DNA of 64,000 nt from a virus. The stretch lies in the IMG/VR virus record IMGVR_UViG_3300043803_002519; one strand, 5' to 3'. The notes below the pieces were generated by a model, which saw only the letters and a list, made by a program, of their open reading frames with translations, was not told the origin of the DNA and made no database searches. Positions 2,279 through 32,000 of this stretch are shown piece by piece; within the stretch, counting starts at the first letter, position 1, and each line of letters opens with the position of its first letter. Position numbers and translations under genes: made by a program.

Positions 2279-4646
2279 ATGCCGACGGACCAGTACAATC
2301 CGGACAACGTCCGGCGCCTTCTCGCCCTGCACTCGCGTCGGCTGGACAAGCGCGCCAACGTCTGGAGGATGCTGAACGCGGCGTACCTCACCCGGTTCTG
2401 GGAGTACGTCGGCAACGTCCCCGACACCGCCCGCTGGTCGAAGTGGAACATCAACGGCACCGAGGTCGAGGTCAACCGCCTGTGGCGTCGGGTGATGACC
2501 TACAAGGCGGCCCTGTACCGCAAGACCTCCCGCATCGAGTGCGGACCCGACCCCATCACCGACCGGGGCGACCCGGTCATTGGCTCGGCCGTGGCCAACG
2601 CCATGTGGATGGACGAGTCCAGCGCCGAGCAGATGGACCGGGCCGTGGAGCTCGCCATCCTGTTCCCGGGCTCTGGCTTCAAGGTGGGCGTGGACGAGGG
2701 GCGCGCCCCGGCCCTACGGCGGGTGTGGACCCGCGTCGTTCCGTGGTGGGAGCTCGTCCTGGACTCCGACGTCAGCGACGTGAAGGACGAGCGCTTCCGC
2801 GGCCACCGGTACTGGGCGCCGAAGAACCTCATCGCCGACAAGTACAACCTGACGGGCCTCATCGGCTCCCGCCGCCGGGACTTCCTGGCGCAGGACAACG
2901 ACGTCGTGAACGTCCAGACGACGGACAATCAGGACGGCGACGACGATGACGGCGAGTTCGTCGAGGTGCTGGAGTTCTCCAACCTCGTCGACTGGGTCAC
3001 GGGAAAGAGCGGCGAGAAGTACAAGGGGCGGCAGGAAATCTACGTTCTGAACCAGAACGACAAGTTCAAGGAGCCGGTCGACCGCAGCCCCCTGGCGTTC
3101 GCGGACGCCGACGGCGTGGGCATCTCGCACATCGAGTACCTCATCTTCTGCCACGAGCCGTCGTTCCCCTTGCGTGGGGTGAGCCCTTGCGAGCGCATCC
3201 TTCCTCAGATGCGGGAGACCAACGTGTACCGCACGAAGCTGGCGGAGCTCCTCCGTCGCAACGCGCGGAAGTACTTCTACAAGCGGGGCACGCTGGGCGA
3301 CGACCAGGTTACCAAGCTGCTCGACGGCAACGACCAGTGCCTGATTGCCGCCGAAGAAGCGGGTGACGTCGACCTCCGGACCCTCGTGGTCCCGGTGCCG
3401 CACATTCCCATCGCGTCGGAGTTCTGGCAGTGGATGGGCCAGGTGCAGGCCGACGACGACCAAGCGTGGGGGCAGATCACCCCCGCAAGCGGCGGGTCGA
3501 CGGAGCGCAACAAGACGGCCTACGCCAACCAGATCGAACAGTTCTGGACCGAGAGTGAGATTGGATACCACGGGCAGTGCCTCACCTCGTCGGTGAAGCG
3601 CCTCACGCGGCTGCGGAACCGCGCGGTCATCCACGCCATGCAGAGCGCCGGCGACGCTGTCGGCGGCCATGGGGTCTCCGCAAACGGAGCGGTGCCCGAA
3701 GGAACCGACCTCGCGCCCATTGGAGCCACCACCGGCAAGGACGCCTCCACCGAGGCTGCGATGCGTGCGGATGCCGCCGGCAGCGCTGGCCCCGCAGTGT
3801 CCGCCGAGGAAACCGCCGCGGTAGCCGTCGCCACCGGGGACGCCGAGCAGGCCTCGGCCCGGGAGACGAGCAGCGGCGCGGCGAAGGTCGTGGTCAGCGA
3901 GTTCCTCGTGAAGGACATCGACGGGAACCCCCACACCGTGACCGTGGGGGCCCTCGACGCCGACTTCGAGATCAAGTTCGTGGACGGCGGCCGCACGCCG
4001 ATGGCGGACGCTGCGCTCCTGCAGTTCCTCTCGACGCAAGGCGCGCAGTACTTCGAATGGTTCGCCATGGTGGTGAAGGGCGGCCCGGCCGCGGTCATGG
4101 CCCGCGCGTGGATGCAGGAGGTAGCGGCCATCGCCCAGCTGCCGCCGTCGCTCCACGTCGACACCCTCGAGCGCAAGCTCGCGGAGGAAGGCCAGACCCC
4201 CGAGCAGGCCGTGGCGAAGGAGTTGCCCGCCGGAGCCGAGGAGGCCCCGCCGGATGAGCAGGTCGAGCCCGCTGCGCCCGCGCCCGAGGGCACCGCCGGC
4301 GCGCCGGCCGACCCGCTCGGCATGGCACTGGGGGAGATTGCCCACGCGCTGAAGGGCGCGGCCGAGGGAGCTCCCGAAGCTGCCGGCCCCATTCAGGCCT
4401 CGATGCAGGCGCTGCAGGGGGCCATGACGGCGAAGGAAGCCGGCGACCTCACTGGGGTCATCGAGGCCCTCAACGCGGCGCTCGACGCGCTCGAGCCCCT
4501 CGCCGAGAGCATCCCCGACGGCGCGGCGCCTGCCTTGGCCCGCGCGGTGGAGATCATGGACCAGGTGCGCCGGGCGCTGATGAAGGGCGCGGCCGCCGAG
4601 GGCGCGCCAGCCCCCGAAGAACCCCCCGTCGAAGAGGTTCCCCCCG

Positions 4647-4657
<11 letters not shown>
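2279..4657 (+). CDS. putative portal protein with Ala/Glu/Pro-rich C-terminal tail
   Basis: 792 aa ORF. The call rests on position just after the terminase and on size. No diagnostic motif was read. Confidence 0.5.
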
Positions 4658-5282
<625 letters not shown>

Positions 5283-10763: not shown

Positions 10764-12839
10764 ATGCAGAGCAAGGCCCTCGTCATCCCCGGCATCAAGG
10801 GCATCGACCAGCGGTGGTCGGCGGGCGCGTCCAGCGCGACTCGCGCCCGAGACCTGCGCTGGGACGGCCGCGGCTTCTGGACCTCCTCCGGGGGCTACGG
10901 CCTCTACATGGAGAGCAACGAGAACGCGAACCCCTTCGCCGGCGTCGGGCGCATCAACTCGGCGCACTACTTCAGCCAGCACAACGGAGCGCGCAGCTGG
11001 CTCATCTACGAGGCGGCCAACGGCAACCTCTACACGTTCAACCCCTCCACTGCGGCGCGGAGCGGCTCCCCTGGCGACATCGCCGAGGACCGCGCGGCCC
11101 AGCAGCAGACCGACCGCGCGAGCCCCACGACCCCGTGGCAGCACAGCCAGTCGGCGACCTGGGGCGACAACTTCTACATCGTCAACGGCATCAACCGGCC
11201 CCTCGTGTTCGACGGGTACTGCTGGGACTACGCGGGGTTCAGTGGACCCGCCGGGTCGCCGTCGGCAGTGGTAATGGCCCGGCCGTTCGCGACCACAGGG
11301 AGCGGAATCAAGCTGACCTCCGTCGGCCTGGGTCCGACGAGCAGCGACGCCGATGTTGATTACAAGGTGGCCTACCGCTGGCGTGTGGCGTTCCGGAATG
11401 TCCGAAAGCAGTTGTCGCCGCTGTCGTCGCCCTCGGAAATCGTGAGCTTCACCAACTCTGGAGGGTCTGAGGAGTCTGACGGGGGGCACCTGGCGGCCCT
11501 CAACCTGCCGATTGGCGGGCCGGAGGTGACTACCCGGGTGCTGTTCCGCACCCAGAACATATACGACTCCACAGGGAACCCCATCCAGGGGTACGCCGAT
11601 CAGTTCTTCTTCCACTCGGAGATTCCGGACAACGTCACCGCAGTGGTTCTCGACGGGTTGCTCGACAGCAATCTCGGCACCCCGGTGGACGACCTGGACT
11701 ACGGGCCGTGGCCGACGGGGGCGAAGTTCATCGCGCCGTTCAAGGGGTGCATGTTCGCCACGGGCAGCACCCAGACGGACGTGTTCTACTCGGCCCCCGG
11801 CTCCCCGGAGAACTTCCCCATCGACAACGTGTTGCCGGTGGGCGACGCCTACCTCGGGCCCATCACGGGCCTGTACGGCACCCGAAACGCGCTGGTGGTG
11901 TTCAAGGAGCACGGCATCTACTTCATCAAGGGCGACCCGGTGAACGGCTTCACCGCCTCGCTCTTCACGAAGACCACGGGCTGTGTGGCGGGCAACACCG
12001 TGCGCGAGGTGCCCGGGCTCGGCCTGGTGTTCCTCGGCAGCAGCGGGGTGTTCCTGCTCCGCGGCACCCTTGAGAACGAGGGGGTGCAGACCGAGGTGGT
12101 GCCCCTGCACGTTCCCATCACGGAGTGGATGAAGAAGCTGAACCGCTCCGCGCTCATCGGGGCGGTGGCCGCGGTCTACCACCGGGACAAGGAGTATTGG
12201 CTGGCGGTGCCATCGGTCGGGTCGGCGGAGAACGACCTGGTCCTCGTCTTCCACTACGAGGTGGGGGAGTGGACGACCCGCGAGGACTTCCCCATCTCGT
12301 GCATGCTCGAGACCCCCGACCACCGGGGGCACCTCGTCTTCGGCAGCTGGGACCCCAACAGCGAGGGCATCCACCTGTACTCCCCCGCCTTCGCCGACAA
12401 GAACGGCACCGCCATCGCGCCGCTGTACCAGACCGGCTGGTTCAACGTGGGGGCCATCTGGCGCTCGATGCGGCCGAAGTACGTGCAGGTCCAGTGCGGC
12501 CTCCACGGCGACAACGGGCTCAACCTCGAGGTCACCACCAACCGAAAGCTCGCTGCCTGGCCCGCCCAGCCCGCCGAGCCACAGCAGTACCCAGGCGACG
12601 CCCAGCCCGTGTACGGCACGGCCACCTTCGACTCCGACATCAACTGGACCGCGTTCCGCCCGGGGACGCTCCGGTTCGACATCGTGGACGCCAAGCAGGC
12701 TATGGTTCACGAGATGAGCGTGGCCTTCACCCCGGACAGCGGCAAGCGGTGGATGTCGCTGGTCGTCATCGACCCCGAGATTTCCCCCGACGACCCCAAC
12801 GAGGCGAAGCCCATCGGGCCCGGCCGAGGGGGGCGCTGA
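10764..12839 (+). CDS. virion structural protein (tail tubular/nozzle position)
   Basis: 691 aa, tightly packed after the previous gene. The call is by position only. Confidence 0.45.
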   Translation: MQSKALVIPGIKGIDQRWSAGASSATRARDLRWDGRGFWTSSGGYGLYMESNENANPFAGVGRINSAHYFSQHNGARSWLIYEAANGNLYTFNPSTAARSGSPGDIAEDRAAQQQTDRASPTTPWQHSQSATWGDNFYIVNGINRPLVFDGYCWDYAGFSGPAGSPSAVVMARPFATTGSGIKLTSVGLGPTSSDADVDYKVAYRWRVAFRNVRKQLSPLSSPSEIVSFTNSGGSEESDGGHLAALNLPIGGPEVTTRVLFRTQNIYDSTGNPIQGYADQFFFHSEIPDNVTAVVLDGLLDSNLGTPVDDLDYGPWPTGAKFIAPFKGCMFATGSTQTDVFYSAPGSPENFPIDNVLPVGDAYLGPITGLYGTRNALVVFKEHGIYFIKGDPVNGFTASLFTKTTGCVAGNTVREVPGLGLVFLGSSGVFLLRGTLENEGVQTEVVPLHVPITEWMKKLNRSALIGAVAAVYHRDKEYWLAVPSVGSAENDLVLVFHYEVGEWTTREDFPISCMLETPDHRGHLVFGSWDPNSEGIHLYSPAFADKNGTAIAPLYQTGWFNVGAIWRSMRPKYVQVQCGLHGDNGLNLEVTTNRKLAAWPAQPAEPQQYPGDAQPVYGTATFDSDINWTAFRPGTLRFDIVDAKQAMVHEMSVAFTPDSGKRWMSLVVIDPEISPDDPNEAKPIGPGRGGR

Positions 12840-16532: not shown

Positions 16533-19064
16533 ATGGCGCGCATCCAGGACTACTACCAGAACCGCCGCGACCTCGGCCCGTCGGCGATGGTGGCGTACCT
16601 CGACGCCTGGCTCGACGAGCGCGCGGGGATGAACAAGTCGCTGATGGCCTCCGAGGGGAAGCAGGCCGACCCCAGCCGCCTGGCTGAGCAGGAGGCCCGC
16701 ATCCGCGCGGCCATGGCGGACCTCCTCAAAGCGAAGGTGAGCGGCTCCGTCGAGCAGATGAAGGCCGCCGACGACCTGGCCAAGCAGGCGCTGTCGTCCT
16801 ACGAGCAGGTCACCGTCGCCAACGTCAAGGCGGGCTCCGACCGGGCCGTCGCGCTGATCCAGTCCCGCACGGACCTCTCGAAGCAGGACGTCGACTCCCG
16901 GGCGGCCATCGCCAAGGAGTTGACGCTGACCAACCCGGACGGCATCAAGATCATCGCGTCGGCCTACGACACCGCCACCACGGAGATGGGCGGTGACCCA
17001 GATCGTGTCGCGGACGCGCTCGTTCGGATGGTCACCGACGTCACCAAGACCCACGAGGGCGGGCACAAGGCCAAACGAGATGCGGCAGCTGCTGAGGTCC
17101 TGCGCCAGGCGACCGAGGCCGGGAATGCCCACGTAGTGGCGCGAATCGAGAAGGCGTTCTTCAGCGGCTCCGCGGCCGACGACTACTTTGAGAGGGTCTA
17201 CCCCGGATTCACTCCCGAGGAGCAGGCCAAGGTGTACGAGGAGGTCAAGAAGCTCGGTGCGGGCGCGGACCCGGAGAAGGTCGTAGCCCTCTACGAGAAG
17301 CTCACCGCAGCGGGCAAGGGCGGGGGCGGCACGAAGACCAGCACCTCGTACTCGGACATCGTTCCAGACCTCGACGCCAAGCTCAAGTCCCTCGAGGACG
17401 CCGCCGACGACCTCGCCAAGGCGCGGCGCGAGGCGATGACCTCGCCCAAGCGCTTCCCGCGCCCCAACTACATGATCGCCAACCCCAACACCTTCACCGA
17501 CCCGCGGCAGGTGGCGGAACTCCGGAAGTGGGGGGTCTTGGACCCGACCTACGTCGAGGAGATGGTCACGGCTCGCCAGCGGGAGGGCACCTGGGCGGGC
17601 GCCCTCAAGTCCGTTGGGGAGCGCGGCGGTGCCTCGCAGAGCATCGAGAAGGTCGCCCCGCTGGTCTTGACCGAGGAGCCCGGCGCACAGGTCACCTACA
17701 CCGACGCCGAGGCGGCGTGGCTGGGCACGCTCAAGCGGGCCGGTTCCGGCGAGCCCTTTCCGGGGAAGGGGGGCTACACCTACACCCTGAACGCCGACGG
17801 CTCCATCACGTCTCTGGCCCCGGAGAAGGGCAAGAAGCCCGTGAAGGTGGAGAAGGGTTCCGCGCCCCACACTGCCATCTTGGAGGAGGTGTTCCCCGCA
17901 CCTGGCCTCCCCGACGAGGTCTCGGACCTCTACGCCCCGTCCATCGAACTCGCCAAGGCGGGACAGTGGGCGAAGGCGGCCGAAGCAGCCGAGAAAGTGA
18001 GCCACGACGACGTGCGCTCGGCCTACGCCCAGGCACTAGTCGACGTGGCCTCTGGCCGGTCGGCGTTCTCCGGCGTGCCTTCCGAGGGCCAGATGGAGGC
18101 CATGGCCGCCAGCATCGGCGAGGGCGGCGGGAAGTGGGGAGAGCACTTCCGCGACCTCCTGCGCCTGCCCGTGTCCGACCAGTACGCCAAGAGCAGGGTC
18201 ATGGGCGCCGTCGACAGCCTCGGCAAGGCCCTGCACAAGACCCCGGATGTCGAGCGTGATCTCGACGAGTCCGACATCGACGAGCGGGCGTATGGCCTCG
18301 CCGAACTCCGTGCGGGGCGGGAGTTGAACACCGGCGCCTACGCCCGCGGCGTGGAAGATGCGACCGGTCCGGTCAAGGCCCTCGTAGAGTCCTCGTCGCC
18401 CGAGGTCGTGCGGGAGCAGCTGCGAGGCCTCCCGGCAGAGCGCAAGGGAGTCGTTCCCGACTACGAAGCGGGCGTCCCGCGCGTGGTGGGGGACGCCCTA
18501 ACCAATGCGAGCCCGCGGACGTTCTCTCCGGTCGTCTACTTCGACGAGCCGGAGCGGGAGTCCCCGCTGGCTGCGCCGGACGCGCGTCTCGCGGCGGCCG
18601 ACGGGGCCCTCGGAGAGTCGGGCCCGGGGCTCGACCTTCACGCCGACGTGTCCGAGGCCCAGCGGGTGCTGGCGACCCTGGACCAGTGGGAGAAGGACAA
18701 CCCGCTCTCGGCGGACGCCCCCGCTTCGAAGCAGGACCGGGAGGCTGTGGCGTTCACTCGGAAGGAGTGGGAGAAGAAGCTGGACAGCGCCCGCGCAAAG
18801 GCGCGTGCCTCGCGCGATTACGTCGCTCCGGAGGAGCGCGGCGCGGCACTGCTCCGCGACCGTGTGCAGAAGGAAGCCGAAACGGTGGCGCCCCCGACCG
18901 TCCGACCCCCGATCCGGCAGGCTCCGCCTGTGTCGGCGGCGAAGCCCCCTCCGGCCGCGCTCGACTACGCGGAGCTCTTCAGCGCGTCGGCCACTCCGAC
19001 GGACGAGTTGGACTACGACCTCGACGAACTGATGGGCCGTGCGCCCGCTGGAGCGAAGCGATGA
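16533..19064 (+). CDS. large helical virion protein
   Basis: 843 aa. The ATG lies 3 nt after the previous stop. No motif recognised. Confidence 0.5.
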   Translation: MARIQDYYQNRRDLGPSAMVAYLDAWLDERAGMNKSLMASEGKQADPSRLAEQEARIRAAMADLLKAKVSGSVEQMKAADDLAKQALSSYEQVTVANVKAGSDRAVALIQSRTDLSKQDVDSRAAIAKELTLTNPDGIKIIASAYDTATTEMGGDPDRVADALVRMVTDVTKTHEGGHKAKRDAAAAEVLRQATEAGNAHVVARIEKAFFSGSAADDYFERVYPGFTPEEQAKVYEEVKKLGAGADPEKVVALYEKLTAAGKGGGGTKTSTSYSDIVPDLDAKLKSLEDAADDLAKARREAMTSPKRFPRPNYMIANPNTFTDPRQVAELRKWGVLDPTYVEEMVTARQREGTWAGALKSVGERGGASQSIEKVAPLVLTEEPGAQVTYTDAEAAWLGTLKRAGSGEPFPGKGGYTYTLNADGSITSLAPEKGKKPVKVEKGSAPHTAILEEVFPAPGLPDEVSDLYAPSIELAKAGQWAKAAEAAEKVSHDDVRSAYAQALVDVASGRSAFSGVPSEGQMEAMAASIGEGGGKWGEHFRDLLRLPVSDQYAKSRVMGAVDSLGKALHKTPDVERDLDESDIDERAYGLAELRAGRELNTGAYARGVEDATGPVKALVESSSPEVVREQLRGLPAERKGVVPDYEAGVPRVVGDALTNASPRTFSPVVYFDEPERESPLAAPDARLAAADGALGESGPGLDLHADVSEAQRVLATLDQWEKDNPLSADAPASKQDREAVAFTRKEWEKKLDSARAKARASRDYVAPEERGAALLRDRVQKEAETVAPPTVRPPIRQAPPVSAAKPPPAALDYAELFSASATPTDELDYDLDELMGRAPAGAKR

Positions 19065-20047: not shown

Positions 20048-23000
20048 ATGCCGAGCCCGCGATCTCCCCAAGAAATCCTTGATGCGCTGGGGATGACCGA
20101 GGACGAGGTTCTCGGGCCCCTCCCGCCCAAGGACGCCGTCGAGCTCGCACCCGAGGACTACCGCGACCCGGAGGTCCTGCCCGTGGGCGAGGAGCCCCCG
20201 GAGGGTGGCGCGCGGACCCCGCGGGGTCGCATCGCCAAGGGCTACGCGAGTGCCGTCTACGAGGATGGGAACACTGCCCTCCGCTCGCTTCGCGGGGACG
20301 TGGCGGACCACCTCATCACCCAGGGGCTTGCCCCTGAAGACGCCAGGCTCACGGCCTACGAGGACACCCGGCACCTCGAGGCCACCGGCCACGTCGAGGA
20401 CAGCGAGGACGCGGCCGACGCCATCCGCGCGCGTGAGGGGGAGCCGACCGTCGGCAAGGCCCTCACCATGGCGGTCAACCGCGTCACCCCCATCGGGCTG
20501 GACCAGGGCCCGGAGGAGTGGGGTCGCCGCGTCCGCGAGAACGAGAAGGCCACCTGGGGCGAGCGGTCCGACGCGCTCGGCAAGGCCTTGCAGGGCGAGG
20601 AGATCACCGAGGCGGACGCCAAGGCGGCGGGCATTGACCTCCCGCTCGTGCAAGAGCTCAAGAAGGCCTACGTCTCCCACTTCGGGGAGATGGTCTACAC
20701 TGCCGGCTCGGCGGGCATCCTCCCGACCATCGGCTCCATCACGGGGCTGATTCCGGGCTGGAGCGACGTCGTCGAGCAGTCGGGCAAGAACCTCGAGGTG
20801 GCGAAGGAGGGGAAGAAGTATGTTACCTCCGAGGAGCTCGTCAAGATCGCCGCCTACGGCGGGGTCAACTCCCCCATCGGCGACGCCATCCCCTACATCG
20901 TGGATGCCGCGGTCGACTTCCATGACGTGGTCACCGGCGAGGACAAGCAGGGCAGGCTCCGCAGCGCGACCGGCGGGACCGTGGGGGACGTGTTCTGGGA
21001 CTTCGTCTCCAAGGGCCGGCACAACGAGAAGTTCGACCCCGCGGCCAAGGCCCTGTACGAAGAGGGGGATGTCGCTGGCTTGGGGCAGCTGGGCATGGTC
21101 GACATCCCTGAGCACGTTCCGGCGGTCAAGGTTGACCTGCCGACGTTGAAGAGCGCCGTGGAGGCGGGGGGTCTGCTGGCCGAGGCGCCCGAAGCAGATC
21201 GGTTCCGGGTGGGGATGTCCAGTGGTCTGTCCGACGAGGTGCTCCAGACCCTCGCTGACGCCATTCCTCTGGACGTGGTGCGCCGCGCGCAGCCGGACGC
21301 GGGCCCGACGTTGAAGTCCGTGCTCGCGGCCTACACGGCTCGCAAGAAGATTCAGGAGATCGTAGGCACCCCCGAGGCAGACGACGCCCTCAAGGTGGCC
21401 GCGGCCGCGCTCCACGACCGCGAGGTGCGGGAGGACGGCTCGGTGTACTTCGTGCCGTCCACCACGCAGAAGGTCCTGACCGCAATCAATGCGGCCGTGC
21501 CTCTCGTCATCGAGGCAGATGTTCCCGTTCTCGGGCCCGTCGCCGGCGTCTACGGGGGCGTGCTCAAGGCCATGGGCTTCGAGAAACTCGGGGGCATGGC
21601 GGAGTCGGCGAGGTTCCCGACGGCAGCTGGCAACGAGTCCATGGTCGCTTCCGGCGACTTCGATTGGGTCCTTGAGGGCATGGGCCTTCAGGGCAGCACC
21701 TCTTCCGAGCGTCGGCGCGACATCGGGGAGTCTCGGTACATCGACCGCGTGTTGGCCGACATGCAACTGCCCCAGTACCAGAACTGGGGCCTGAAGGAGC
21801 TCGGCCGCGACCTTGGGGTGAAGCCGGGCTCCACGGCGGACGTGGCCCTCGGGACCGCGGACCTTGGGGCGGACACCGTCGTGCCCTTCGAGGAGATGTT
21901 CCTCGGGCCCGCCGGCTCGGCGGTCACCATGGCCTCGCGCGCGGCGACGGCGGCGAAGCTCAGCAAGATGCTCGGGCGGAGCAACTCCCAGGCGGCACGC
22001 GTTGCGGTGCGAGCGGCGCTTCCCCAGTTCCTGGGCGGGTCGACGGATGCCGTCGCGGCCATGGACGCGGCCCTGCGGACGGCCGTCGCCGACTCGGTGG
22101 CGGCGGGCGAGGTGCTCTTCACGGTTGGCCGCGGCGAGGACGCCGTGAAGGGGACGCTCTCCAAGGAGGTCCAGCGTGCCGTCGGCAACCTCCTCGAGGA
22201 CGTGGGCATCCGCAAGGAGGACGTGTTTCGCACGGTCAACGACCTCTCCTTCGCGCAGAAGGCCAAGAACACCGTCATCGTGAAGGACTGGATGGCCCGG
22301 GGCACTCCCGAGCAGAAGGCCCTCCGCGAGACGGCGGAGTGGAAGGCGGTGCGACAGGGGCTGGAGGAGTCGGCCCCGCCAGAGGTCGTGGACGCTGGCA
22401 TGGCGCTCAACGAGTGGATGGCGCACCAGGCAGTGGTGCTGGGCGAGTTCCGCTCCCCCAAGGACTGGTTCGCCGCGCAGCGCGTGGGCAAGGCCATCGA
22501 CGGTGCCGCGCCTCCTCCGCCGCGCCCGACCACGGTCGCTGACGCCCTGCGCGCGGCCGCTACGGATGCGGACGGCGAAGTGTCGGCAATGGCTGCGCGC
22601 CTCTTGGCGATGAACCATCCGGCGGTGACGTCCGCCGCGCTCGACGTGGGCGTGGACCTCGGGCCCGGCGTGCACGGCCGCTACGACATCGCGGACAACC
22701 ACATCGTCCTGTCGCCGAGCGCGACCGCGAGCACCCTCGTCCACGAGGTGGCGCACGCGGTCACGGCCCACGCCCTTCGCAACGTCGACACCCTGTCGCC
22801 CGCCGGTCGCAAGGCGGTGGCGGACCTGCAGGCCCTGTACGCCAAGGCCTCGGAGTCCCCCGACCTGCAGGCCGTCGGCCTGGGTCTGGACAACCTCGAC
22901 GAGTTCATCGCTGAGGCCTACTCCAACCCGGCCTTCCGCGCGGCCTTGCGGAAGGTGAAGGTCACCCCCACCAAGAGCGCCTGGCGGGTGTTCGTCGACA

Positions 23001-26000
23001 CCGTGGGACAGCTCCTGGGTCTCAAGACCAAGCCTGAGCTCGACGCCCTCGACCGGACGCTGAGCAAGATCGAAGTCGTGGCCAAGGAGCGCGTGGTGCC
23101 GGGCCGCGGCGGAGGGTCTCTGGCTTCTCGGGCGGCGCTGGTCAAAGACCCGCCGGCCCCGGAGCCCCCCGACGTTCTTCCAGAGCGGCACCCCGCCGAC
23201 ACCTGGGCGGACGTCCGCGGTCCCATTGGGTGGTGGATGCCTCTCGACGAGGTCGAGTTCCGCATCGGTCAGATGGCGGAAGAGCACGCCATCTTCTTCG
23301 ACCGCGAGGGGCGCCAGATTGCGCGCTTCGGGCCGGAGGACACTCGTCGGGACGCCCCGGGGTACGATCCTGCCACCGCGTGCATCATCTACCCCAAGGC
23401 GCTGGACGACCTCGCGGCCTCGGGTGGCGGGGTCTACACCCACAACCACCCCAGCGGCAGCGCCCCGTCCATCGACGACGTTCTCGTGGCACGTCGCGGG
23501 AACGTGGACGCACTGCGCGCTGTCGCACGGAACGACGGATTCACCTGGGTCGTTCGCCGGCCAGAGGCGGGCTGGCCAGAGACCGATGTGTTGCGAAGGG
23601 CGTGGAAGGACCTCGCGCACACCGTGTACCTGTCTGCCAAGAAGCGCATGGACGCCCGCATCAAGGCTGCGGGGGGGAACCTCTGGGAGGGCGACCGGGC
23701 GGCTGGCTTCTCTGAAACCGTATGGAAGGAGTACCTCACGAATGGCTACGACACCCACTGGGCCGAATACTTCGGGGACCTTGGCATCGTCCTCGAGCGG
23801 GAACGGCACCCCCATCTTGGTCAACTCGGACTGGACGCCCCGGTACGGGGAGCCGCTGGTGCTCCCGGAGCCGGACCCGCAGTTGCTGGAGCCACCGAAG
23901 CGGCCCGCTACCCCGCCGTCGGAGTAGGCGAGCAGGGCAGGCTGTTCTCCCGTGCTGCGCCGGAAGGCGGCACTGTTCGGAAGGGCCGGCTGGGTTCGGA
24001 CCTCCCCCGACTGCTGGACCTGCTCGGAGCGAGCATGTACTCCAAGCCGCTCGCAGAGGTGGCTGTCAAGGAGTTGGTGCAGAACGCATTCGATGCAATC
24101 AAGGCCACTGCCCGCACGGATGGGCAGATTCACGTCACCCTGAACGCCCAGGAGCGCACCCTCTCGGTGGCGGACAACGGCAAGGGGATGACCCCGGAAG
24201 TCGTGCAGGACGCGCTGTTCACGGTCGGAGGAACCAACAAGGAGGGGCTCGCCGTGGGAGACCGCTCGGGCGGGCTGGGGTTGGCCAAGATGGCCTTCCT
24301 GTTCGGGTCCGAGTGGGTCGATGTGGACACGGTGCATGGGGGGGTTCGCACCCGCGTTCACGCCACGTCGGCGCAGATCAAGGCCTCCGACTTTGACATC
24401 GTGACTGAGCCTGCCCCCGGCGCGCCCAACGGAACCAATGTCACTCTCAAGATTCCGGAGACGTACCGAGACCCTGCCTCTGGAGCGGACCGCACCATCT
24501 ACCTCTTCAAGGAGCAGATGACGAGCGAGCAGGGGTCGGGGGTGCTGGACAGGCCGCTTTTCGGGAACGTCGAGGTCCTGTTCACGGAGGTTCCGCGGTA
24601 CGGAACGCCGTCAACCGCCACGCTGCCCGTTGGCAGGAACACTGACCCGCTCGCAACCCCCCTCCTGACCCGCGCAGCGTTCGACTGGGGCTCCGCGGAC
24701 GTCTACATGGGGGACGCCCGGAAGAAGTACCCCCGGCACCGAGTACTGTCTGCGGGACTGCATCAGTTTGATACTGCCATTCTCGCAGGTAACGAGCGCA
24801 TCCCCTACGACATCGTAGTTGACATTCGCCCGGGAGTGGACCCGCTCCACCCACACTACCCGTTCAACAACCAGCGGGAGGGGTGGCGCGGTACGGTCGA
24901 GGCCGACGTCAAGGCCCTGAACGGCTACATCGCCAAGCACTCCAGCGGCCGCGCCGCCGCAGAGACGTCGGACGTGTTCAAGGGGGCCGTCACGATGCCC
25001 CGTGTGGCGCCCGACGACCTGGATGTCGGAGCGGCCGCTCCCGCGGCTGTGAAGGCGTTTGCGCCGAAGGCTCCCCCTTCTCCACCCCCCGAGGGCGCCG
25101 CGGCCCCGAGGGCGCCCGACGTAATCAAGATCAGCGCCGGCGCTGTGGCCCCTTCGGTATCGGAGCGGGCGGCCCCAGACAGCTTCCGTCCCGAGAGGGC
25201 GGCCCCCGACCTTCAGTCCTTCGTCGGGTCCGTGGCCGTGGACCCCCTGAAGCCGCTCTTCCACAACAACACGGGAGTCGACTACATCGGCGCGGTGCGG
25301 GCGGCGCTGCCTGGCGCCGAGCCCGAGCGGTTCCTCGCGGAGATGGGGTCGCTGGTCCTCGACTTCAAGGAGGCCGCGGCCAAGCAGGACAAGTACGGTC
25401 TGGCCGATCTGGTCTCGTTGGAGAACCCCTACGCTGCAGGCATCTCCATCGACAAGGACTACCGAGGGGTTCACGTCAAGGTCCCGTACCGCGCGTTCTT
25501 CCTGAATCCCCTCGCGGCCACCAACGAGACCGCGTCGGGCCTTGCGGAGAGCATGCTCCACACGCTGGTCCACGAAGTGGCGCACACGACCGTGATGGCG
25601 CACAACGAGAACTTCGCTCTCGCGCTGGCGGACGTTTACGACCGGCTCGGAGACTCCGGGGACACAGACATCTTCCGGGCGCGGCTGCGGAAAATACTGA
25701 CGCGGCACCAAGACACCTTCAACGAGATGAGGCGCATCTATGACAGCCCCCGCACAAGCAATCTCCGAGGCGCTCTGGAAAACGGCGAGCAGCTTTCCAC
25801 CCGAGGAGCGCCCGGCCCAGGTGAAGGCGGCCCTGGAGCAGCACCTGGAGATGCTGCAGCAGTCGGGGGGCTCGACGGAGATGCAGGCCCCGCTCGTCGA
25901 GGCGTTGGAGAGCCTTCTGCTCGAGAACTGATCGAGGCGGCTCTGCCGGGTCTCTCCGGGCACGGGAACGCCGCGCGGCCGGGTCCGCTCTACTCCCGCG

Positions 26001-29000
26001 CGGCCCCGGCCCCCTCGGCAGTCCCGAAGCCGTCGCTTCCTGAACCCACCGACGAGGTGCGTCGAGCGCATCAAGCCCTCGTCGTCAAGCGACTGCTGTC
26101 GCCGAGCGCAGAGACGCGCGCGGCGCACCAGGCGTACCAGGCGGAGCACCCCGAGGTGCTTGCATGGGCGGAGTACCGGGCGGCTGTCGCCGACGCAGAG
26201 TTGGCTCAAGCGCGCGAAGCTGCCCGCGCGGAGTACGAGGCCGGAGCCCCCGCCCGTCAGGCTGCAGCGGACGCGAAGGCGGCACGGTATGCGGACGCGA
26301 AGGCGACCGGAAAGAAGCTGCCCCCGGAAGAGCGGGCGATGAATCGTCGCGAGTGGTTCGGGGACTCCGCGGTGACGACCACGGGCGAGGCCGGTGGGAA
26401 GCCGCTGGTCGTCACGCACGAGTCGCCGTCAAAGTTCTCGGAGTTCCGGGCAGGGGAGTTCGGCTTTCACTTCGGGGTCGGCATCCCCGACGGGATGTTC
26501 GGCAGCAACCGGGTGTCGGGGCTGCTCCGCATCAACAACCCGATGCGGATGGCTGACCTCGGGGTGTGGACGCCGGAGCGGGTCCTTGCGGAGGGCGGGT
26601 TCAGCACCGCGGAGCAACCGCGCCTGCTGGCGGAGGTTGAACGGATTCGGGCGGAGGCGGACGCGCCGACGAAGGCCATGGTCGCGAAAGCACGGGCTTC
26701 TGGAGACGTGGCCACGGCCGAGAAGTGGCAGGCCCTCTTGGAAGATGGCAGCGATGCGGCGACCTTCCGCGACCGCCGCGGGAACTACCTGGCGAGCCGG
26801 CCGGTGCATGACGCCCTCCGCGAGAAGGGCTACGACGGCATCGTGTACCGCAACGAGGCGGAGGGGGTCGACGACTCCTACATCGCCTTCGAGCCGCAGC
26901 AGTTCAAGTCGAACAAGAACGTCGGGACCTACGACGCCACCGACCCCCGCTTCCTGTACAGCCGCGCCGCGCCAGCCCGCGCCGCCGAGGAGGCGGCCGA
27001 GCCCCTGCCCGTGTTTCGATCTCCTGCCGCCACAGAGCAGCGCTGGCATCGGATTGGCGACGACCATCAGTACACCGAGTTGACCATCTCCCCTGAGGGG
27101 GCGCTGGACCCGTCGTTGCCGAGCTACGCGAAGCGGGGAAGGATGTCCAGCGGTCGCGGGACAGGGTTCGCCTCTGGCATGTACGCATTCGCTGACGCGC
27201 GCCAGGGGACGGTTCCCGTTCTCCCCGCCCGGAACCCCCTGACGCTTCGGTCGTGGGGGCTTGAGGTGCCCAACGCGGCGGCCGAGTTCCAGCGGGATGC
27301 GTCGTCTCTCCTGTTCCTCGCGGAGCGCCTTCGCGACCTGTCTCCGGCGAAGCGCGCAGAGGCCATCGATCTGTTGCGCGCGAGGGTGTCCTCCTCCTTC
27401 GAGGAAGTGTACGACGCCGAGAAGCGCCTTGCCTCCCCCGAGTTCGGCATTGGTCGGGGTGTGTTTGGCGGGGAGCCCAAGTTCCCGTCCGACCTCGCGA
27501 CCGCCCTTGACCCCCTCCTCTCGCGCTGGCGGAGGGTGGGTGTGCCTGCGGGCCTCGACGGAGCCGGCACGGTGGACGCGCTGATCGATGCGGCGGCGAC
27601 GTGGGGCAAGCACCAGCATGTCCACCCGGTGAACATCCTGCTGAGTCGAATGGGCCACGACGGCATCGAATGGGCGGGAGGGGCGCTCAAGGAAGGCAAC
27701 ACCGGCGCCCACGGCTTCGTCAAGTTCCCGCCCATCACCGCAGACGGCGCTCTCGTTGACGTCGTTCCAGACCCTCGTCATGGCTACGCGGTGACGCACG
27801 GTGGGCGCGACCCGCGGGTGCTGTACTCCCGCGCCGCGCCAGCCCGCGCCGCCGAGTACCGCGGTGTAGACGGCAAGCCCCGCACCGCCACCATGTTCAG
27901 CGGCGGTGGGCTGGTCGAGGCGGGTCTCCGCAAGTACATCGACCCGGTGTTCGCGGTCGAGGTGAGCCCTGAGATCGGAGCCGCGTACAAGGCGGCCCAC
28001 GGCGACCACGTCCGCATCGACGACGTCCGCAACGTCGACCTCGGCGAGGCTGGCGACGTGGACTACCTGCACGCCTCCCCGGTCTGCAAGAACTTCAGCG
28101 CCGCCAAAGCCGTCACGGAGTCCGGTGAGCAGCCCCTGGACCTTGAGACGGCTCGGGCCACCGCCGACGCCGTCCACCGCACCCAGCCCGCGGTCTTCAC
28201 GCTGGAGAACGTGCGGGGCTACCAGGGCACCGAGGCCATGGGGCTGGTCGAAGCCGCGCTCCGCGAGGAGGGCTACACCTTCGACGCCAACGTCTACGAC
28301 GCGGCCGACTACGGCGCGGCCACCCGACGCAAGCGTCTGCTGCTCCGGGCGGTGAAGGACGGGGACCTCCCCCCGGTCCCGGCGCCCACGCACGGGCCCG
28401 GCCGGGCGCAGCCCTACGCCGACTGGTACGCCGCCGTTGAGGACCTCGTAGATGACCTGCCCGACGACGTGGTCCCCCCGTGGATGCGACGGCGCCTCGA
28501 GGCGGCGGGGATCGATCCCGACGCGCCGGCGAAGCCCACCATCGTCATGGGCGGCAGCGCTGGGAAGAACGTGCCCTACGCGGAAGCGGGGGGGCCTGCC
28601 CCCACGTTCAAGGCCACGCCGGGCGAAGCGCACCGCATCATCTTCCCCGACGGGCGGGTCAAGCGGGTCACGCCCCGCGCAGCCGCTCGCATCACGGGCC
28701 TGCCTGACGACTACCCGCTGCCCACCAAGAACGCGACGGCGACGACGGTCATCGGCAACGGCGTGCCCCCGGCCCTGAGCGAGGCGGTGTTCGCGCCGCT
28801 CTTGGCGGGCGACCATGTGCCGGGGACGCTCTACTCCCGCGCGGCGCCTATTGAAGACGCCGCGCCCGGCATCGTGGCCCTCCGCAAATACATGCTGGAT
28901 GCGGCCGGCGACGATACGGCGTTCGACGCCAAGGTCTACGCTGAGCGCAAGCAGGTCTGCGCGTTGACCGGGCACTGCAACGCGGCGGCGTACATCGTTC

Positions 29001-32000
29001 AGAAGCGCTACGGCGGCGAGCTTCTGAGTGCGAAAGTCGACGGCGAAACGCATGTATGGAACCGGCTCGCCGACGGCACCGAGATCGACCTCACCGGTTC
29101 GCAGTACGGCGGGGACGGGTTTCACCCGGTAGCGAAGAATGGAAAGGTGGTGCCACTGCGATCCACGGTGAACCCGCGGTTTGCAGCGTTTGAAGACCGC
29201 GTGGCCGCTGCGGAGCTGCGCGCTGCGCGCGACCCTCGGTTCCTCTACTCCCGCGCCCCCGGCAACCAGACCGACACGCCCGCCTTCCAGCGCTTCATCG
29301 AGGGCACCAAGGCCGTGGACGAGGACGGCGCGCCGAAGCGGCTGTACCACGGCACCACGCACGACTTCGAGGCCTTCGACGCGCAGAGTGGGAACGTCGA
29401 GAACCACCACGGCCGTGGCATCTACCTGACCTCGTCGGAAGGCGACGTCGGGTCCAACTACGCCACCCGCGAGGGGCCCGACCTCAAGAGCCGCATCGAG
29501 TCCCAGATGGAGTCCCTCCTCGACGTCTGGGACGACCCCAGCGTGGCGCAGGACTTCGTCGAGCGGTGGCTGGAGGCGCACCCTGAGCGCGCCGCCGAGG
29601 GCGAGCGGCTGGTCCAGGTGCTGGACGACGGGGGGAACCCCGACGCGAATCTCTTGCAGGAGATCACTCGGTGGGTAGCCGAGCAGGAGATTGCTGGCTC
29701 GCACGGGGGCGCAGTCCTGCCCGTCTACGCCGCCATCAAGAACCCCGTCGATTTGCGGCCCGGCAAGGTGACACGCTTCGACATCGAGACGAAGTGGTCC
29801 GAGGACGGTGAGGACTTCCTCGGCGAGACCGGGGCCGGCGTGGAGGCCATCGACGCCATCCGCCGCATGGCCAACTCCTCCGACACGGCGGACCTGATCA
29901 TCGAGGCGCTCGGGGACATCTCCGAAGGGTTCGACGCCGCTGACCTCGAGCGCGCAGTGCGGGACAACTCCATCGAGTTCCTCGACGACGACTCTTCAGC
30001 GGGGCAGTTCCTTCAGGACGTCTACCGCGAGCTGGGCTTCGACGGCATCGTCATCGACGCCTACAAGACCTTCGGCCCCCGGCGCGCAGGGTGGGGGGTA
30101 AACCTCCCCGGCATGGCGGGGCTGACCCCCGGCACGGAGCACTGGGTCGCCTTCGAGCCCACCCAGGTCAAGTCCGCCACGGGCAACCGCGGCACGTTCG
30201 ACCCGAAGGACAAGCGCCTCTTGTACAGCCGCGCGCCTGACGGCCCGACGTGGACCGCCGAGCCCCCGCCCCCGGGCGACAAGGTCCCCGGCATCGTCGA
30301 CAACCCCGCCCACGCGGCTTGGTCCAAGACGAAGCGTGACCTTGCGAAGGATGTCGCGGACCTCGAGGACGCGGAGCTATCCGCGTGGTGGGAGCACTAC
30401 GGGCCCTCTCCGGACGCGCCGACGGTCGCGCCCAGGCCGAAGAACTTCGCCGAGGCTCAGGCCTACTGGACCGAGCACGGCGACGACCCGGCGGAGTTCC
30501 CCGAGCCCTCCCCCGAGCTCTCTGCGAAGCTGCAGGCCCTCGACGATGCCAACGCCGCGCCCGAGCCCTCGCGCACCACCGCAGGCTTGGTGAACGACCC
30601 GGCCCGCGTCATCGTCCGCTACTTCAAGACCGCCAACATGCAGGCCCTGCTCGAGCAGAACGCTCAGGTCATCCGCATGCTGCTCGGGGAGAAGTGGGCG
30701 GGCGACCTCATGCGCTTCTTCGACCACGAGGTCGACACAGCCTCCGGCCAGGTGCGCCTCACGAAGAAGGGCGAGGAGCAGTTCAACGTGGCCCTCGCCC
30801 GCGTCCTGCGCGGCGACCTCGCGCCCCGCGGCCGGGTGCGGGCGTACTTCGAAGAGCTCCGCGATGCGCTGAGCGACATCTGGCTGAACCTCCGCGGCAA
30901 GCCCATGTCGCTGCCCCCCGGCTTCCGCCAGTGGTGGGACGCCACCCTCGACCCGGCCAAGCACCTCCGCGCCCGGGTGAAGGTCTCCGACGAACGCTTC
31001 GGGCGCCAGCCGCTCGAGGTCAACGTCACCGTGAAGGCGAACGACCCCGACGCTCCCCCGCCGCCGGACCCCACGCGCCTCGGGCGGGAGCTCGCCGACG
31101 TCACGGACGTCATCTACCGAGAGGACTTCAAGCGCGCCAACGCTCTGCACGAGTACTGGAACCTGCCCCTGACGCCCGGGCAGAAGCGCCACGCCCTCGG
31201 CATCCTGGGCAGCGACACCGACGTGGATGCTGTCGAGGCCGTGGCCAAGGCCATCGCGCTCCTCGGCACGACGCAGGCCCGCCGCCGCTGGGGCTTCTCC
31301 GGCAAGGTGGTGCGGGTGGGTCGGCGCAGCCAGGTCTCCGAAGACCGCAAGGAGAGCGTGCTGAAGCGCGCCCGCGAGGCCTTGCACGGGGCCATCGGCG
31401 GCGACGTGGTGGCCGCTCCCGACGGCGGGGTGACCCTCACCCCCGAGCAGGCCAAGGGCCTCGCCGCACACCTCGACCACCTCGTGGACGCCGGGTGGGG
31501 CGAGCAGCTGCCGGACGAGTTGATCAGTCCGCAGAAGGACCTCACCAAGCTGACCGAGCAGGAGTGGTCGGACATCGCCAACACCACGGTCGACGACGTG
31601 GCGGGCCCTGGCAGCTACCGCGACCGCCAGGCCGACCGGGTCGTGGGCAACGCCGCGGAGAGCCTCCTCGGCCGCGCGGTCGACGCACTGTCCACCGTGC
31701 CCATCTTCAACGGCGTGCGCCGGAAGCTGACCGAGGCCTTCGACACGACCTTCGCCGGCAGCAAGAACATCAACCCCGCCGTGGCCGAGGTGGTGGACGG
31801 GTGGCGTCGCGAGTTCAGCGACGTGGCATCCCAGATTGCCCGCCTTCGTGAGCATGTTCGCGCGGGCACTGCAGACGAGACGGCCGAAGTCCTGATTCGG
31901 AAGATTGCCAAGGAACTGCCCGCCGTGGGCCCCGACCCCAAGGTGGTCGACGACCTGGTGGTGCTGAACCGCGCCCTCAACCCTGAGGGGGACGTCACGC

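What the first reader, a model, noticed from the sequence alone, without database searches (positions are those of the whole stretch)
22625..25650. Up to four peptidase-like catalytic centres in one polypeptide (two TLVHEVAH zincins, a JAB, a Cys-His-Asp module)
Seen: HEVAH at 22742-22756 and again at 25571-25585, in both cases within the identical octapeptide TLVHEVAH and followed by another His 4-5 residues later. HNHPSGSAPSIDD lies at 23441-23479. GHC...HVW...D lies at 28850-29242. Established: JAB and zincin domains in polyvalent proteins have been proposed as autoprocessing peptidases. Inference: this redundancy is what a self-cleaving polyprotein would need. Alternatively some of these centres target host proteins, for example ubiquitin-like or CBASS/Bil-type conjugates in the case of JAB. 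The JAB spacer is one residue shorter than the canonical HxHx7Sx2D, so activity is not guaranteed.
Basis: partly seen in the sequence, partly recalled or inferred. Interest (0 to 1): 0.65.

Follow-up and report, generated by a model that had tools for sequence, protein, structure and literature searches.

The report
Giant phage ejection protein carrying enzyme cassettes
The four motifs are real, intact catalytic centres, but they belong to four unrelated enzyme modules strung along a 4904-residue phage "polyvalent" ejection protein, so they look like separate cargo enzymes rather than back-up copies of a self-cleaving protease.

Summary

The four centres:
- Zincin 1 is homologous to the HExxH domain of podovirus ejection proteins: N4 virion RNA polymerase C-terminal domain and PhiM1 gp48. 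Its likely third ligand is Glu952, not the nearby His.
- Zincin 2 is unrelated to zincin 1. It is a Wss1/SprT-like HExxHx5H domain at the end of a conserved ~610-aa GHKL-ATPase module, which also exists as a stand-alone phage protein.
- The JAB is a genuine but divergent RadC-like fold (AlphaFold pLDDT 97). All catalytic residues are invariant, and the shorter spacer is typical of its family.
- The Cys-His-Asp module is a Pfam YunG domain with an invariant C/H/D. Its fold was not tested.

Each centre is an independent cassette. The cassettes are bounded by eight [LF][YFA]SRA linkers; seven match the stricter [LF][YF]SRA pattern, against 0.014 expected by chance. Blocks of 92-96% DNA identity to a relative, whose scaffold is only 70% identical, start and end at these linkers.

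This is a new member of the polyvalent proteins described by Iyer et al. (2017). Cleavage at the linkers is plausible but unproven. The "redundant autoprotease" reading is not supported.

The parts
20048..34762 (+). Giant ORF, 4904 aa: polyvalent ejection (internal virion) protein
   Evidence: ORF list and translation. GC3 is 0.88. Pfam finds DNA_methylase, ART-PolyVal, YunG and HATPase_c_3. The exact protein is on 12 metagenome contigs of about 70 kb. It lies in the virion block, downstream of the terminase and an internal-virion-protein-like gene.
20048..22630 (+). N-terminal scaffold region, shared with relatives P0025 and P0027
   Evidence: BLASTP finds 30-32% identity over aa ~320-620 and 28% over aa ~661-810. 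phrog_2206 'virion RNA polymerase' covers aa 668-1016.
22631..23083 (+). Zincin 1 (aa 862-1012): ejectosome-type HExxH domain. His899, Glu900 and His903 lie at nt 22742-22756; the candidate third ligand Glu952 lies at nt 22901-22903.
   Evidence: It aligns with N4-like vRNAP, two copies in L001, P0024 and P0063. H, E, H, T906 and E952 are invariant. Profile against PDB: 9sfn_G internal virion protein, E 1.9e-17; N4 vRNAP residues 2197-2324, E 4.9e-10; PhiM1 gp48 (8vb2), E 1e-7.
23120..23134 (+). Linker 1 (LASRA, degenerate)
23177..23809 (+). RadC-like JAB module (aa 1044-1254). Glu1079 lies at nt 23282-23284. His1132, His1134, Ser1141 and Asp1144 lie at nt 23441-23479. The module has a C-terminal helical extension.
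   Evidence: 172 homologues at E<=1e-3. E, H, H, S and D are invariant. Profile against PDB gives RadC 2QLC, E 0.0017. The AlphaFold model has pLDDT 97.1. Foldseek top hits are RadC 2QLC and JAMM1 5LDA, probability 0.97.
23942..23956 (+). Linker 2 (LFSRA)
23957..25789 (+). GHKL ATPase + transducer + zincin 2 module (aa 1304-1914). The GHKL part is at nt 24056-24460. Zincin 2 is aa 1737-1898 (nt 25256-25741). His1842, Glu1843 and His1846 lie at nt 25571-25585; His1852 lies at nt 25601-25603.
   Evidence: It is one conserved module at 33-41% identity in L001-L004. There are 23 database homologues, including stand-alone proteins of 535-603 aa. HExxH and the GHKL motifs are invariant. The AlphaFold model has pLDDT 74.6 overall and about 85-95 in the zincin part, with a helix / 3-strand / HExxH-helix / helix topology. 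Foldseek matches Hsp90 and GyrB for the N-terminal part. Profile against PDB gives Wss1, E 0.0035, and Spartan, E 0.0075.
25988..26002 (+). Linker 3 (LYSRA). It is also the left end of a block 96% identical at DNA level to relative L017.
26003..26953 (+). ART-PolyVal-like module 1 (aa 1986-2302)
   Evidence: Pfam ART-PolyVal E 5.9e-6, below the curated cut-off. phrog_21376. 96.7% identical to L017.
26954..26968 (+). Linker 4 (LYSRA)
26969..27820 (+). Module of unknown family (aa 2308-2591)
   Evidence: No meaningful Pfam, NCBIfam or PDB match.
27821..27835 (+). Linker 5 (LYSRA)
27836..28828 (+). C5 cytosine DNA methyltransferase module (aa 2597-2927)
   Evidence: Pfam PF00145, E 4.4e-27.
28829..28843 (+). 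Linker 6 (LYSRA)
28844..29242 (+). YunG-family Cys-His-Asp module (aa 2933-3065): Cys2977 at nt 28976-28978, His3002 at nt 29051-29053, Asp3014 at nt 29087-29089.
   Evidence: Pfam PF24585 scores 54.2 bits against a cut-off of 27. C, H and D are identical in 6 sequences from phages, a metagenome and plasmids.
29243..29257 (+). Linker 7 (LYSRA)
29258..30220 (+). ART-PolyVal module 2 (aa 3071-3391)
   Evidence: Pfam PF18760, E 5.4e-21. 91% identical to L017.
30221..30235 (+). Linker 8 (LYSRA)
30236..34759 (+). C-terminal scaffold (aa 3397-4904). It contains a degenerate HExxH, read as EQNAQ, at aa 3536-3540 (nt 30653-30667).
   Evidence: Shared with P0025, P0027, P0028 and L016-L025 at 31-72% identity. 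The HExxH is intact in 10 of the 12 family members compared (window included) and lost here and in L022.

Best explanation
The ORF encodes the large ejection (internal virion) protein of a podovirus-like phage, expanded into a polyvalent protein. Conserved N- and C-terminal scaffold regions flank eight enzyme modules, seven of which are bounded by linkers on both sides. Zincin 1 has no linker on its N-terminal side and stays attached to the N-terminal scaffold.

The four 'peptidase-like centres' are four unrelated, individually intact modules:
1. Zincin 1 is the HExxH...E domain found in podovirus ejectosome proteins and N4 vRNAP, and is joined to the scaffold.
2. Zincin 2 is a Wss1/SprT-like HExxHx5H domain that forms one unit with a GHKL ATPase.
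3. The JAB module is RadC-like.
4. The YunG module carries a Cys-His-Asp.

Shown: domain identities, conservation of catalytic residues, linker regularity, cassette boundaries and cassette exchange.

Inferred:
- The protein is packaged in the capsid and ejected into the host with the DNA.
- The modules act mostly as separate effectors on host targets, not as redundant autoproteases.
- The [LF][YF]SRA(A)P linkers are the junctions at which modules are swapped, and probably also the sites at which the chain is cut into nine pieces after assembly or ejection.
- If a built-in enzyme does the cutting, zincin 1 is the best candidate. It is the only peptidase-like centre that no linker separates from a scaffold region. 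The scaffold's own HExxH is dead in this phage but intact in most relatives.
For: Context and kind:
- The terminase and an internal-virion-protein-like gene lie upstream.
- ART-PolyVal, C5 methylase, YunG and GHKL domains are present.
- Iyer 2017 describes polyvalent proteins with 1-5 zincin domains, RadC, ART and methylases, and predicts embedded zincins process them.
- A 2811-aa polyvalent protein was detected by proteomics in phi24B virions.

The four centres:
- Zincin 1: PDB profile hits to an internal virion protein, N4 vRNAP residues 2197-2324 and PhiM1 ejectosome gp48. The N4 paper notes a conserved HExxH in that subdomain. H, E, H and E952 are invariant.
- Zincin 2: HExxH is invariant in 24 sequences. 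The model shows zincin topology. Wss1 and Spartan are the best PDB profile hits. Stand-alone homologues span exactly the inter-linker unit.
- JAB. The same fold occurs as cargo on phage 'minor capsid proteins'.
- YunG.

Linkers:
- Seven are observed against 0.014 expected, and codons differ among copies, so selection acts on the peptide.
- The motif occurs in no other ORF of the window; the only other six-frame match is one off-frame antisense hit.
- Related motifs occur in relatives: LYSRA in P0024 and L017, ILPSRA three times in L001.
- DNA blocks 96% and 92% identical to L017 start and end at linkers, while the scaffold is 70% identical. The window has three modules inserted exactly between two linkers.
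- The scaffold HExxH is intact in 10 of 12 family members but reads EQNAQ here.
Against: - No experiment or proteomic data show cleavage.
- N4 vRNAP carries the zincin 1 domain and is reported to be packaged uncleaved. The conserved job of zincin 1 is therefore not polyprotein processing.
- Relative L022 has no HExxH at all, so a zincin is not obligatory for this protein family.
- Pfam models for MPTase-PolyVal, RadC and JAB do not match.
- Profile E-values for zincin 2 (0.0035) and for the JAB (0.0017; Foldseek 4e-3) are modest.
- Packaging and ejection are inferred from homology and gene position only.
- The co-occurrence of linkers with a scaffold-attached zincin rests on about six proteins, some of them truncated.
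Confidence: 0.6

Rival explanations
1. One reading: the four centres are redundant autoprocessing peptidases that a self-cleaving polyprotein needs, and each cuts some of the linkers.
For: All four have complete catalytic residue sets. The protein has eight regular linkers. Iyer 2017 proposes autoprocessing by embedded zincins.
Against: The centres belong to four unrelated families, and each is found without a polyprotein. The eight linkers share one motif, which suggests one specificity rather than four. RadC-type JAB domains are predicted to be nucleic-acid enzymes. Relatives with LYSR-type linkers carry different subsets of these centres: P0025 has none of zincin 1, zincin 2 or YunG.
Confidence: 0.12
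2. The protein is never cleaved and works as one giant chain, as N4 vRNAP does. The linkers are flexible spacers whose conserved sequence serves module exchange by recombination, or has some other non-proteolytic role such as folding or translocation.
For: N4 vRNAP, with the same zincin 1 domain, is packaged intact. High-identity DNA blocks shared with L017 end at the linkers, and the two blocks overlap by 28 nt in the shared linker. Cassette order differs between relatives.
Against: Codons differ among the eight copies, so DNA homology is only short microhomology while the peptide is conserved. The linkers lie in Pro/Gly/Ala-rich segments, and they bound units that correspond to complete autonomous proteins. 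Both features are typical of processing sites.
Confidence: 0.3
3. The linkers are cleaved, but by a protease outside this protein: a phage head-maturation protease or a host protease.
For: Head proteases process internal proteins at short consensus sites in other phages (general knowledge, not tested here). Most neighbouring virion genes have no recognisable family, so an unrecognised protease cannot be excluded.
Against: No protease family was found among 20 neighbouring proteins. The motif occurs in no other ORF of the 64-kb window, so no other virion protein shares the site.
Confidence: 0.12

Closest known systems
Polyvalent proteins of phages and conjugative elements (Iyer, Burroughs, Anand, de Souza, Aravind 2017; PMC5512222)
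   Same: A very large phage protein that combines several unrelated enzymatic domains: zincin metallopeptidases (1-5 per protein in that survey), RadC, ART-PolyVal and DNA methylase. Such proteins are predicted to enter the host with the DNA and to be processed by embedded zincins.
   Different: That paper does not mention a GHKL ATPase, a papain- or transglutaminase-like domain, or any linker or cleavage motif. Pfam's MPTase-PolyVal model does not match either zincin here.
HExxH subdomain C1 of the N4 virion RNA polymerase C-terminal domain, and ejectosome proteins (PhiM1 gp48, PDB 8VB2; 'internal virion protein', 9SFN)
   Same: Zincin 1 is homologous to these (E 1.9e-17 to 1e-7), with the HExxH and a downstream Glu conserved. 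All are capsid-internal proteins of short-tailed phages.
   Different: Those proteins carry no string of effector cassettes and no LYSRA linkers. N4 vRNAP is reported as uncleaved. No function is assigned to the domain in the papers read.
Wss1 / Spartan (SprT) / WLM zincins
   Same: Zincin 2 has the HExxHx5(H/E) motif followed by an aromatic residue. Wss1 and Spartan are the best PDB profile hits. There are weak Pfam motif hits to Zincin_1, YgjP and WLM.
   Different: E-values are only 0.003-0.01. Here the domain is fused to an Hsp90/GyrB-like GHKL ATPase in a conserved ~610-aa unit. No DNA-binding part was identified.
RadC / JAB (MPN+) domains (PDB 2QLC; Pyrococcus JAMM1, 5LDA)
   Same: Same fold by Foldseek (probability 0.97). 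The Glu, HxH, Ser and Asp residues are all present and invariant.
   Different: The spacer is 6 residues instead of 7 across the family. An added ~70-residue C-terminal helical extension is present. No match to the Pfam RadC or JAB models, and only E 0.3 to NCBIfam RadC.
Polyproteins of eukaryotic RNA viruses
   Same: Several autonomous enzymes are encoded in one chain, separated by a recurring short motif, with embedded peptidase-type domains. Iyer 2017 draws this analogy.
   Different: There is no sequence relationship and cleavage is unproven here. The protein would be delivered ready-made from the capsid rather than translated in the host.

Membership tests
Polyvalent proteins (Iyer 2017) | One polypeptide from a phage or conjugative element that combines several unrelated catalytic domains | tested here: met
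   ART-PolyVal (x2), C5 methylase, GHKL ATPase, YunG, two zincins and a JAB lie in one 4904-aa ORF of a phage.
Polyvalent proteins (Iyer 2017) | Delivered into the host with the DNA (virion-packaged) | not testable with these tools
   Only indirect support: the gene lies in the virion block, and zincin 1 is homologous to ejectosome proteins.
Pfam MPTase-PolyVal (PF18818) | Match to the family model | tested here: not met
   No hit at E<=10 for either zincin segment.
Zincin metallopeptidase, ejectosome / N4 vRNAP C1 type (zincin 1) | HExxH plus a downstream Glu on the next helix, conserved across homologues | tested here: met
   H899, E900, H903 and E952 are invariant in 6 sequences. Homology to N4 vRNAP, 9sfn_G and 8vb2.
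Zincin metallopeptidase (either domain) | Zinc binding and peptide-bond hydrolysis | not testable with these tools
   No assay is possible. No zinc site or activity is reported for the N4 or PhiM1 domains in the papers read.
Wss1/SprT/WLM-type zincin (zincin 2) | HExxHx5H motif and family homology | tested here: inconclusive
   HExxH is invariant, and the residue at +10 is His or Glu. The model has zincin topology. Profile E-values are only 0.0035-0.0075, and Pfam hits are below cut-off.
JAB/MPN+ (RadC clade) | Catalytic motif E...HxHx7Sx2D | tested here: inconclusive
   E1079, H1132, H1134, S1141 and D1144 are all present and invariant. The spacer is 6 residues rather than 7, as in 129 of 150 family members.
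JAB/MPN+ (RadC clade) | JAB (deaminase-like) fold | tested here: met
   The model has pLDDT 97.1. Top Foldseek hits are RadC 2QLC and JAMM1 5LDA, probability 0.97. The PDB profile hit to 2QLC aligns the motifs.
JAB/MPN+ (RadC clade) | Match to the curated Pfam/NCBIfam RadC or JAB models | tested here: not met
   No Pfam hit at E<=10. NCBIfam RadC gives E 0.3.
Pfam YunG (PF24585) | Match above the curated cut-off | tested here: met
   54.2 bits against a cut-off of 27.
Papain/transglutaminase-like Cys-His-Asp peptidases | Conserved Cys, His and Asp in that order | tested here: met
   C2977, H3002 and D3014 are identical in 6 sequences.
Papain/transglutaminase-like Cys-His-Asp peptidases | Papain-like fold and peptidase activity | not tested
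The PDB sequence search gave only spurious WD40 repeat matches.
Self-cleaving polyprotein | Recurrent site at module boundaries | tested here: met
   Eight linkers, seven matching [LF][YF]SRA against 0.014 expected. The units between them equal autonomous proteins.
Self-cleaving polyprotein | Demonstrated cleavage at those sites by an internal protease | not testable with these tools
   This needs proteomics or in vitro assays.

The most novel reading that the evidence does not exclude
The [LF][YF]SRA(A)P motif is a true site-specific processing signal. If so, this phage delivers from its capsid a ready-made polyprotein that is cut, by a scaffold-attached zincin, into about seven free enzymes plus two scaffold pieces inside the host. 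That would be a bacterial-virus counterpart of RNA-virus polyproteins. The same linker would also be the junction at which effector cassettes are exchanged between phages.
Probability: 0.35. Interest if true: 0.7.

Novelty: new member of a known kind. Interest (0 to 1): 0.42.

Why it matters
The main result is a clarification. Several "protease" motifs in one giant phage protein are not evidence of redundancy. They mark separate cargo enzymes of a known protein class, the polyvalent proteins.

Three points are worth keeping:
- The protein gives an unusually clean, testable candidate cleavage motif for polyvalent proteins. Their processing has so far only been predicted.
- The linkers coincide with the ends of recently exchanged DNA blocks, which suggests how such proteins gain and lose effectors.
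- Three cassette types are defined that current domain libraries miss or leave uncharacterised: a GHKL-ATPase plus Wss1/SprT-like zincin unit, a RadC-like JAB family with a 6-residue spacer, and YunG as phage cargo.

Tried and rejected
- **Family scans.** Pfam and NCBIfam scans of each segment at permissive thresholds gave no significant family for zincin 1, zincin 2 or the JAB. The assignments therefore rest on homologue alignments, PDB profiles and models.
- **Searches that found nothing useful.**
  - The first word-indexed homologue search (aa 661-1298) returned nothing.
  - DNA searches against phage and plasmid collections found nothing.
  - IMG/VR has no relatives of the C-terminal scaffold.
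  - The zincin 1 alignment was too divergent for a locus scan.
  - A literature search for 'YunG' returned only surnames.
- **Spurious WD40 hits.** PDB phmmer hits of the YunG module to WD40 proteins were rejected as summed repeat noise, because every single stretch had an E-value above 50.
- **Octapeptide as duplication.** This was rejected. There is no BLASTP similarity between the two domains, the flanks are unrelated, relatives differ within the octapeptide, and the two domains hit different PDB families.
- **Shorter JAB spacer means inactive.** This was rejected because the 6-residue spacing is the family norm.
- **Shared head-protease site.** There is no support for this: the motif is in no other ORF of the window (the only other six-frame match is one off-frame antisense hit), and no protease family was found among the neighbours.
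- **Foldseek on the GHKL-zincin model.** Matches came only from the ATPase part, so the zincin 2 fold could not be searched on its own.

Full report
**1. The observation**

The region lies in one ORF, 20048-34762 on the + strand, encoding 4904 aa.
- Codon-position GC is 0.71/0.49/0.88. The long antisense ORFs show the inverted pattern expected of non-coding frames in 70% GC DNA.
- The identical protein is called on 12 metagenome contigs of about 41-70 kb.
- TLVHEVAH occurs at aa 896-903 and aa 1839-1846. HNHPSGSAPSIDD occurs at aa 1132-1144. The GHC...HVW...D residues are Cys2977, His3002 and Asp3014.
- Two HExxH are seen against 0.11 expected (P = 0.004). Apart from the linkers, TLVHEVAH is the only repeated octapeptide.

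**2. Context**

The window is phage DNA.
- Upstream lie a terminase large subunit and an internal-virion-protein-like gene.
- Downstream, on the other strand, lie a family A DNA polymerase, a D5-like primase-helicase and a PD-(D/E)XK nuclease. A second C5 methylase gene is also present.
- Nothing similar exists at DNA level in the phage or plasmid collections.

**3. Anatomy of the protein**

Pfam finds a GHKL ATPase (aa 1337-1451), a C5 methylase (2614-2915), YunG (about 2968-3022), ART-PolyVal (from 3091 on) and a weaker ART-PolyVal copy (about 2160-2290).

Eight [LF][YFA]SRA motifs lie at aa 1025, 1299, 1981, 2303, 2592, 2928, 3066 and 3392; six are exact LYSRA. They cut the middle of the protein into modules.
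- Seven match [LF][YF]SRA, against 0.014 expected in shuffles.
- Codons differ between copies, so the peptide rather than the DNA is conserved.
- The motif occurs in no other ORF of the window; the only other match in the six-frame translation is a single off-frame antisense hit.

Relatives found through the JAB search (P0024, P0025, P0027, P0028) and a metagenome scan (L016-L025) share the N-terminal region (aa ~320-810) and the C-terminal region (aa ~3520-4904). They carry different sets and orders of middle modules.

**4. Zincin 1 (aa 862-1012)**

- It aligns with the vRNAP of an N4-like Vibrio phage, two copies in IMG/VR giant L001, and P0024 and P0063. H899, E900, H903, T906 and E952 are invariant.
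- A profile hits solved structures: an internal virion protein (9sfn_G, E 1.9e-17), N4 vRNAP residues 2197-2324 (E 4.9e-10) and the PhiM1 tetrameric ejection protein gp48 (8vb2, E 1e-7).
- The N4 structure paper places a conserved HExxH in CTD subdomain C1 (residues 2124-2375) and assigns it no function.
Glu952 is the likely third ligand, as in the zincin description of Iyer 2017.

**5. Zincin 2 (aa ~1737-1898)**

- It is not related to zincin 1.
- It is the C-terminal domain of a module (aa 1304-1914) conserved as one block at 33-41% identity in four IMG/VR giants.
- The module is present in 23 database proteins, 16 of which are stand-alone proteins of 535-603 aa.
- The GHKL motifs and H1842, E1843 and H1846 are invariant. 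The residue ten positions after the first His is His or Glu.
- The AlphaFold model has pLDDT 74.6 overall and about 85-95 in this domain. It shows helices, a three-stranded sheet, the HExxH helix and further helices.
- Foldseek matches Hsp90 and GyrB for the N-terminal ~400 residues.
- A profile of the domain alone best matches Wss1 (E 0.0035) and Spartan (E 0.0075).
- Stand-alone homologues begin 0-17 residues after the LFSRA linker and end about 70 residues before the next LYSRA.

**6. JAB (aa 1044-1254)**

- Pfam finds nothing.
- An exhaustive search of 1.84 billion representatives finds 172 homologues. Many are in proteins of 2000-4466 aa and many are small proteins.
- The motif THNHPxGxxxSxxD with a 6-residue spacer is present in 129 of 150 homologues.
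- E1079, H1132, H1134, S1141 and D1144 are invariant in a 26-sequence alignment.
- The profile's best PDB hit is RadC 2QLC (E 0.0017), with the motifs aligned across a one-residue gap.
- The model has pLDDT 97.1. Its best structural matches are RadC 2QLC and Pyrococcus JAMM1, both at probability 0.97.
- In the viral structure library, the whole module, including its helical extension, recurs at the C-termini of phage 'minor capsid proteins' and as small proteins.
- Iyer 2017 argues that RadC domains act on nucleic acids.

**7. YunG module (aa 2933-3065)**

- It matches Pfam PF24585 at 54 bits against a cut-off of 27.
- Homologues are small ORFs on Ralstonia, Streptomyces and Paenarthrobacter plasmids, in a 595-kb uncultured phage, and a metagenomic protein.
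- Cys, His and Asp are identical in all six sequences.
- The fold was not tested.

**8. Linkers as junctions**

- Relative L017's scaffold is 62% identical in protein and 70% in DNA. Yet it carries ART module 1 at 96.7% and ART module 2 at 91% protein identity, directly adjacent.
- At DNA level, the 96% block spans window 25988-26968, from the first base of linker 3 to the last base of linker 4. The 92% block spans 29230-30244, from linker 7 to linker 8. The two blocks overlap by 28 nt in L017's shared linker.
- The window therefore has the unknown module, the methylase and YunG inserted exactly between two linkers.
- Related motifs recur in relatives: four LYSRA in P0024, three LYSR in L017, three D(D/E)ILPSRA in L001, and looser forms after ART domains elsewhere.
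- Other JAB-bearing giants have different recurrent inter-module motifs.

**9. A dead fifth centre**

The C-terminal scaffold begins with HE(N/F/G)xH in 10 of the 12 family members compared (the window included). It reads EQNAQ in the window (aa 3536-3540) and PQFAK in L022. L022 has no HExxH anywhere, and no LYSR-type linker was found by the pattern used.

**10. Interpretation**

The protein fits the polyvalent proteins of Iyer 2017, which already include up to five zincin domains per protein, RadC, ART and methylases, and a predicted autoprocessing role for zincins. Packaging of such a protein in a podovirus has proteomic support in phi24B.

- Each of the four centres is a separately distributed module, so redundancy for self-cleavage is not the economical reading.
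- Cleavage at the linkers is plausible for three reasons: the peptide motif is regular, its flanks are Pro/Gly/Ala-rich, and the units between linkers equal autonomous proteins. It is nevertheless unproven.
- The same linkers clearly serve as exchange junctions.
- N4 vRNAP, with the zincin 1 domain, is reported to be packaged uncleaved. This weakens zincin 1 as a dedicated processing enzyme.
- Zincin 1 is still the only peptidase-like centre that no linker would separate from the scaffold, in a phage whose scaffold HExxH is dead.

**11. Verdict**

- This is a new member of a known kind.
- It has one feature worth an experiment: the linker as a possible defined cleavage site.

Noticed in passing
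window 30653-30667 (aa 3536-3540): The C-terminal scaffold carries a conserved HE(N/F/G)xH motif in 10 of the 12 family members compared (window included). It reads EQNAQ in the window and PQFAK in L022, making it a fifth, inactivated zincin-like centre.
   Followed up: partly
window 25988-26968 and 29230-30244; L017 3242-5209: The two ART modules are 96% and 92% identical in DNA to a TARA metagenome relative whose scaffold is only 70% identical. The blocks end at the linkers. The window has three extra modules (26969-29242) inserted between two linkers.
   Followed up: yes
L007 (contig of P0002), 1-22976: In another phage, the GHKL-zincin module is a separate 991-aa gene. It sits between a 5334-aa gene and a 1978-aa gene, and a GIY-YIG homing endonuclease gene lies directly after it. 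This looks like a giant protein split into several genes.
   Followed up: no
P0054, P0070, P0056, P0077, P0100, P0107, P0124 (JAB-bearing giants): Other giant proteins have their own short motifs recurring 3-7 times at intervals of 200-2000 residues: PYIGPRGGKW, PTGNPKRPWRYI, GGFRKRDG, KHLPGQHDQS and FDPDQPRDE..GRWT. Regular inter-module motifs may be a general, undescribed feature of polyvalent proteins.
   Followed up: no
L012 (LR756511.1, 595-kb uncultured phage), about 2932-3363: The stand-alone YunG-like ORF of this huge phage is preceded in frame, just after a stop codon, by 'RLFLYSRVG', which resembles the window's linker. This may be chance or a remnant of a polyvalent origin.
   Followed up: no
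window 26969-27820 (aa 2308-2591): This 284-aa linker-bounded module has no meaningful match in Pfam, NCBIfam, PHROGs or PDB, and no counterpart in the relatives examined.
   Followed up: partly
window 43185-44414 (+): A second, stand-alone C5 cytosine methyltransferase gene lies in the same phage, in addition to the methylase module inside the giant protein.
   Followed up: no
window 20048-34762: There are only 5 cysteines in 4904 residues (aa 1112, 2680, 2971, 2977, 4410). One is the candidate YunG active-site Cys (aa 2977). Another (aa 2680) lies in the methylase module in a Pro-Val-Cys context and is probably its catalytic Cys, though this was not checked.
   Followed up: no
window 10764-12836 and 16533-19064 (+): Large genes lie just upstream of the giant ORF. 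The first matches internal virion / virion structural protein PHROGs (phrog_511, phrog_3287); the second matches nothing. They may be the other ejectosome components.
   Followed up: no
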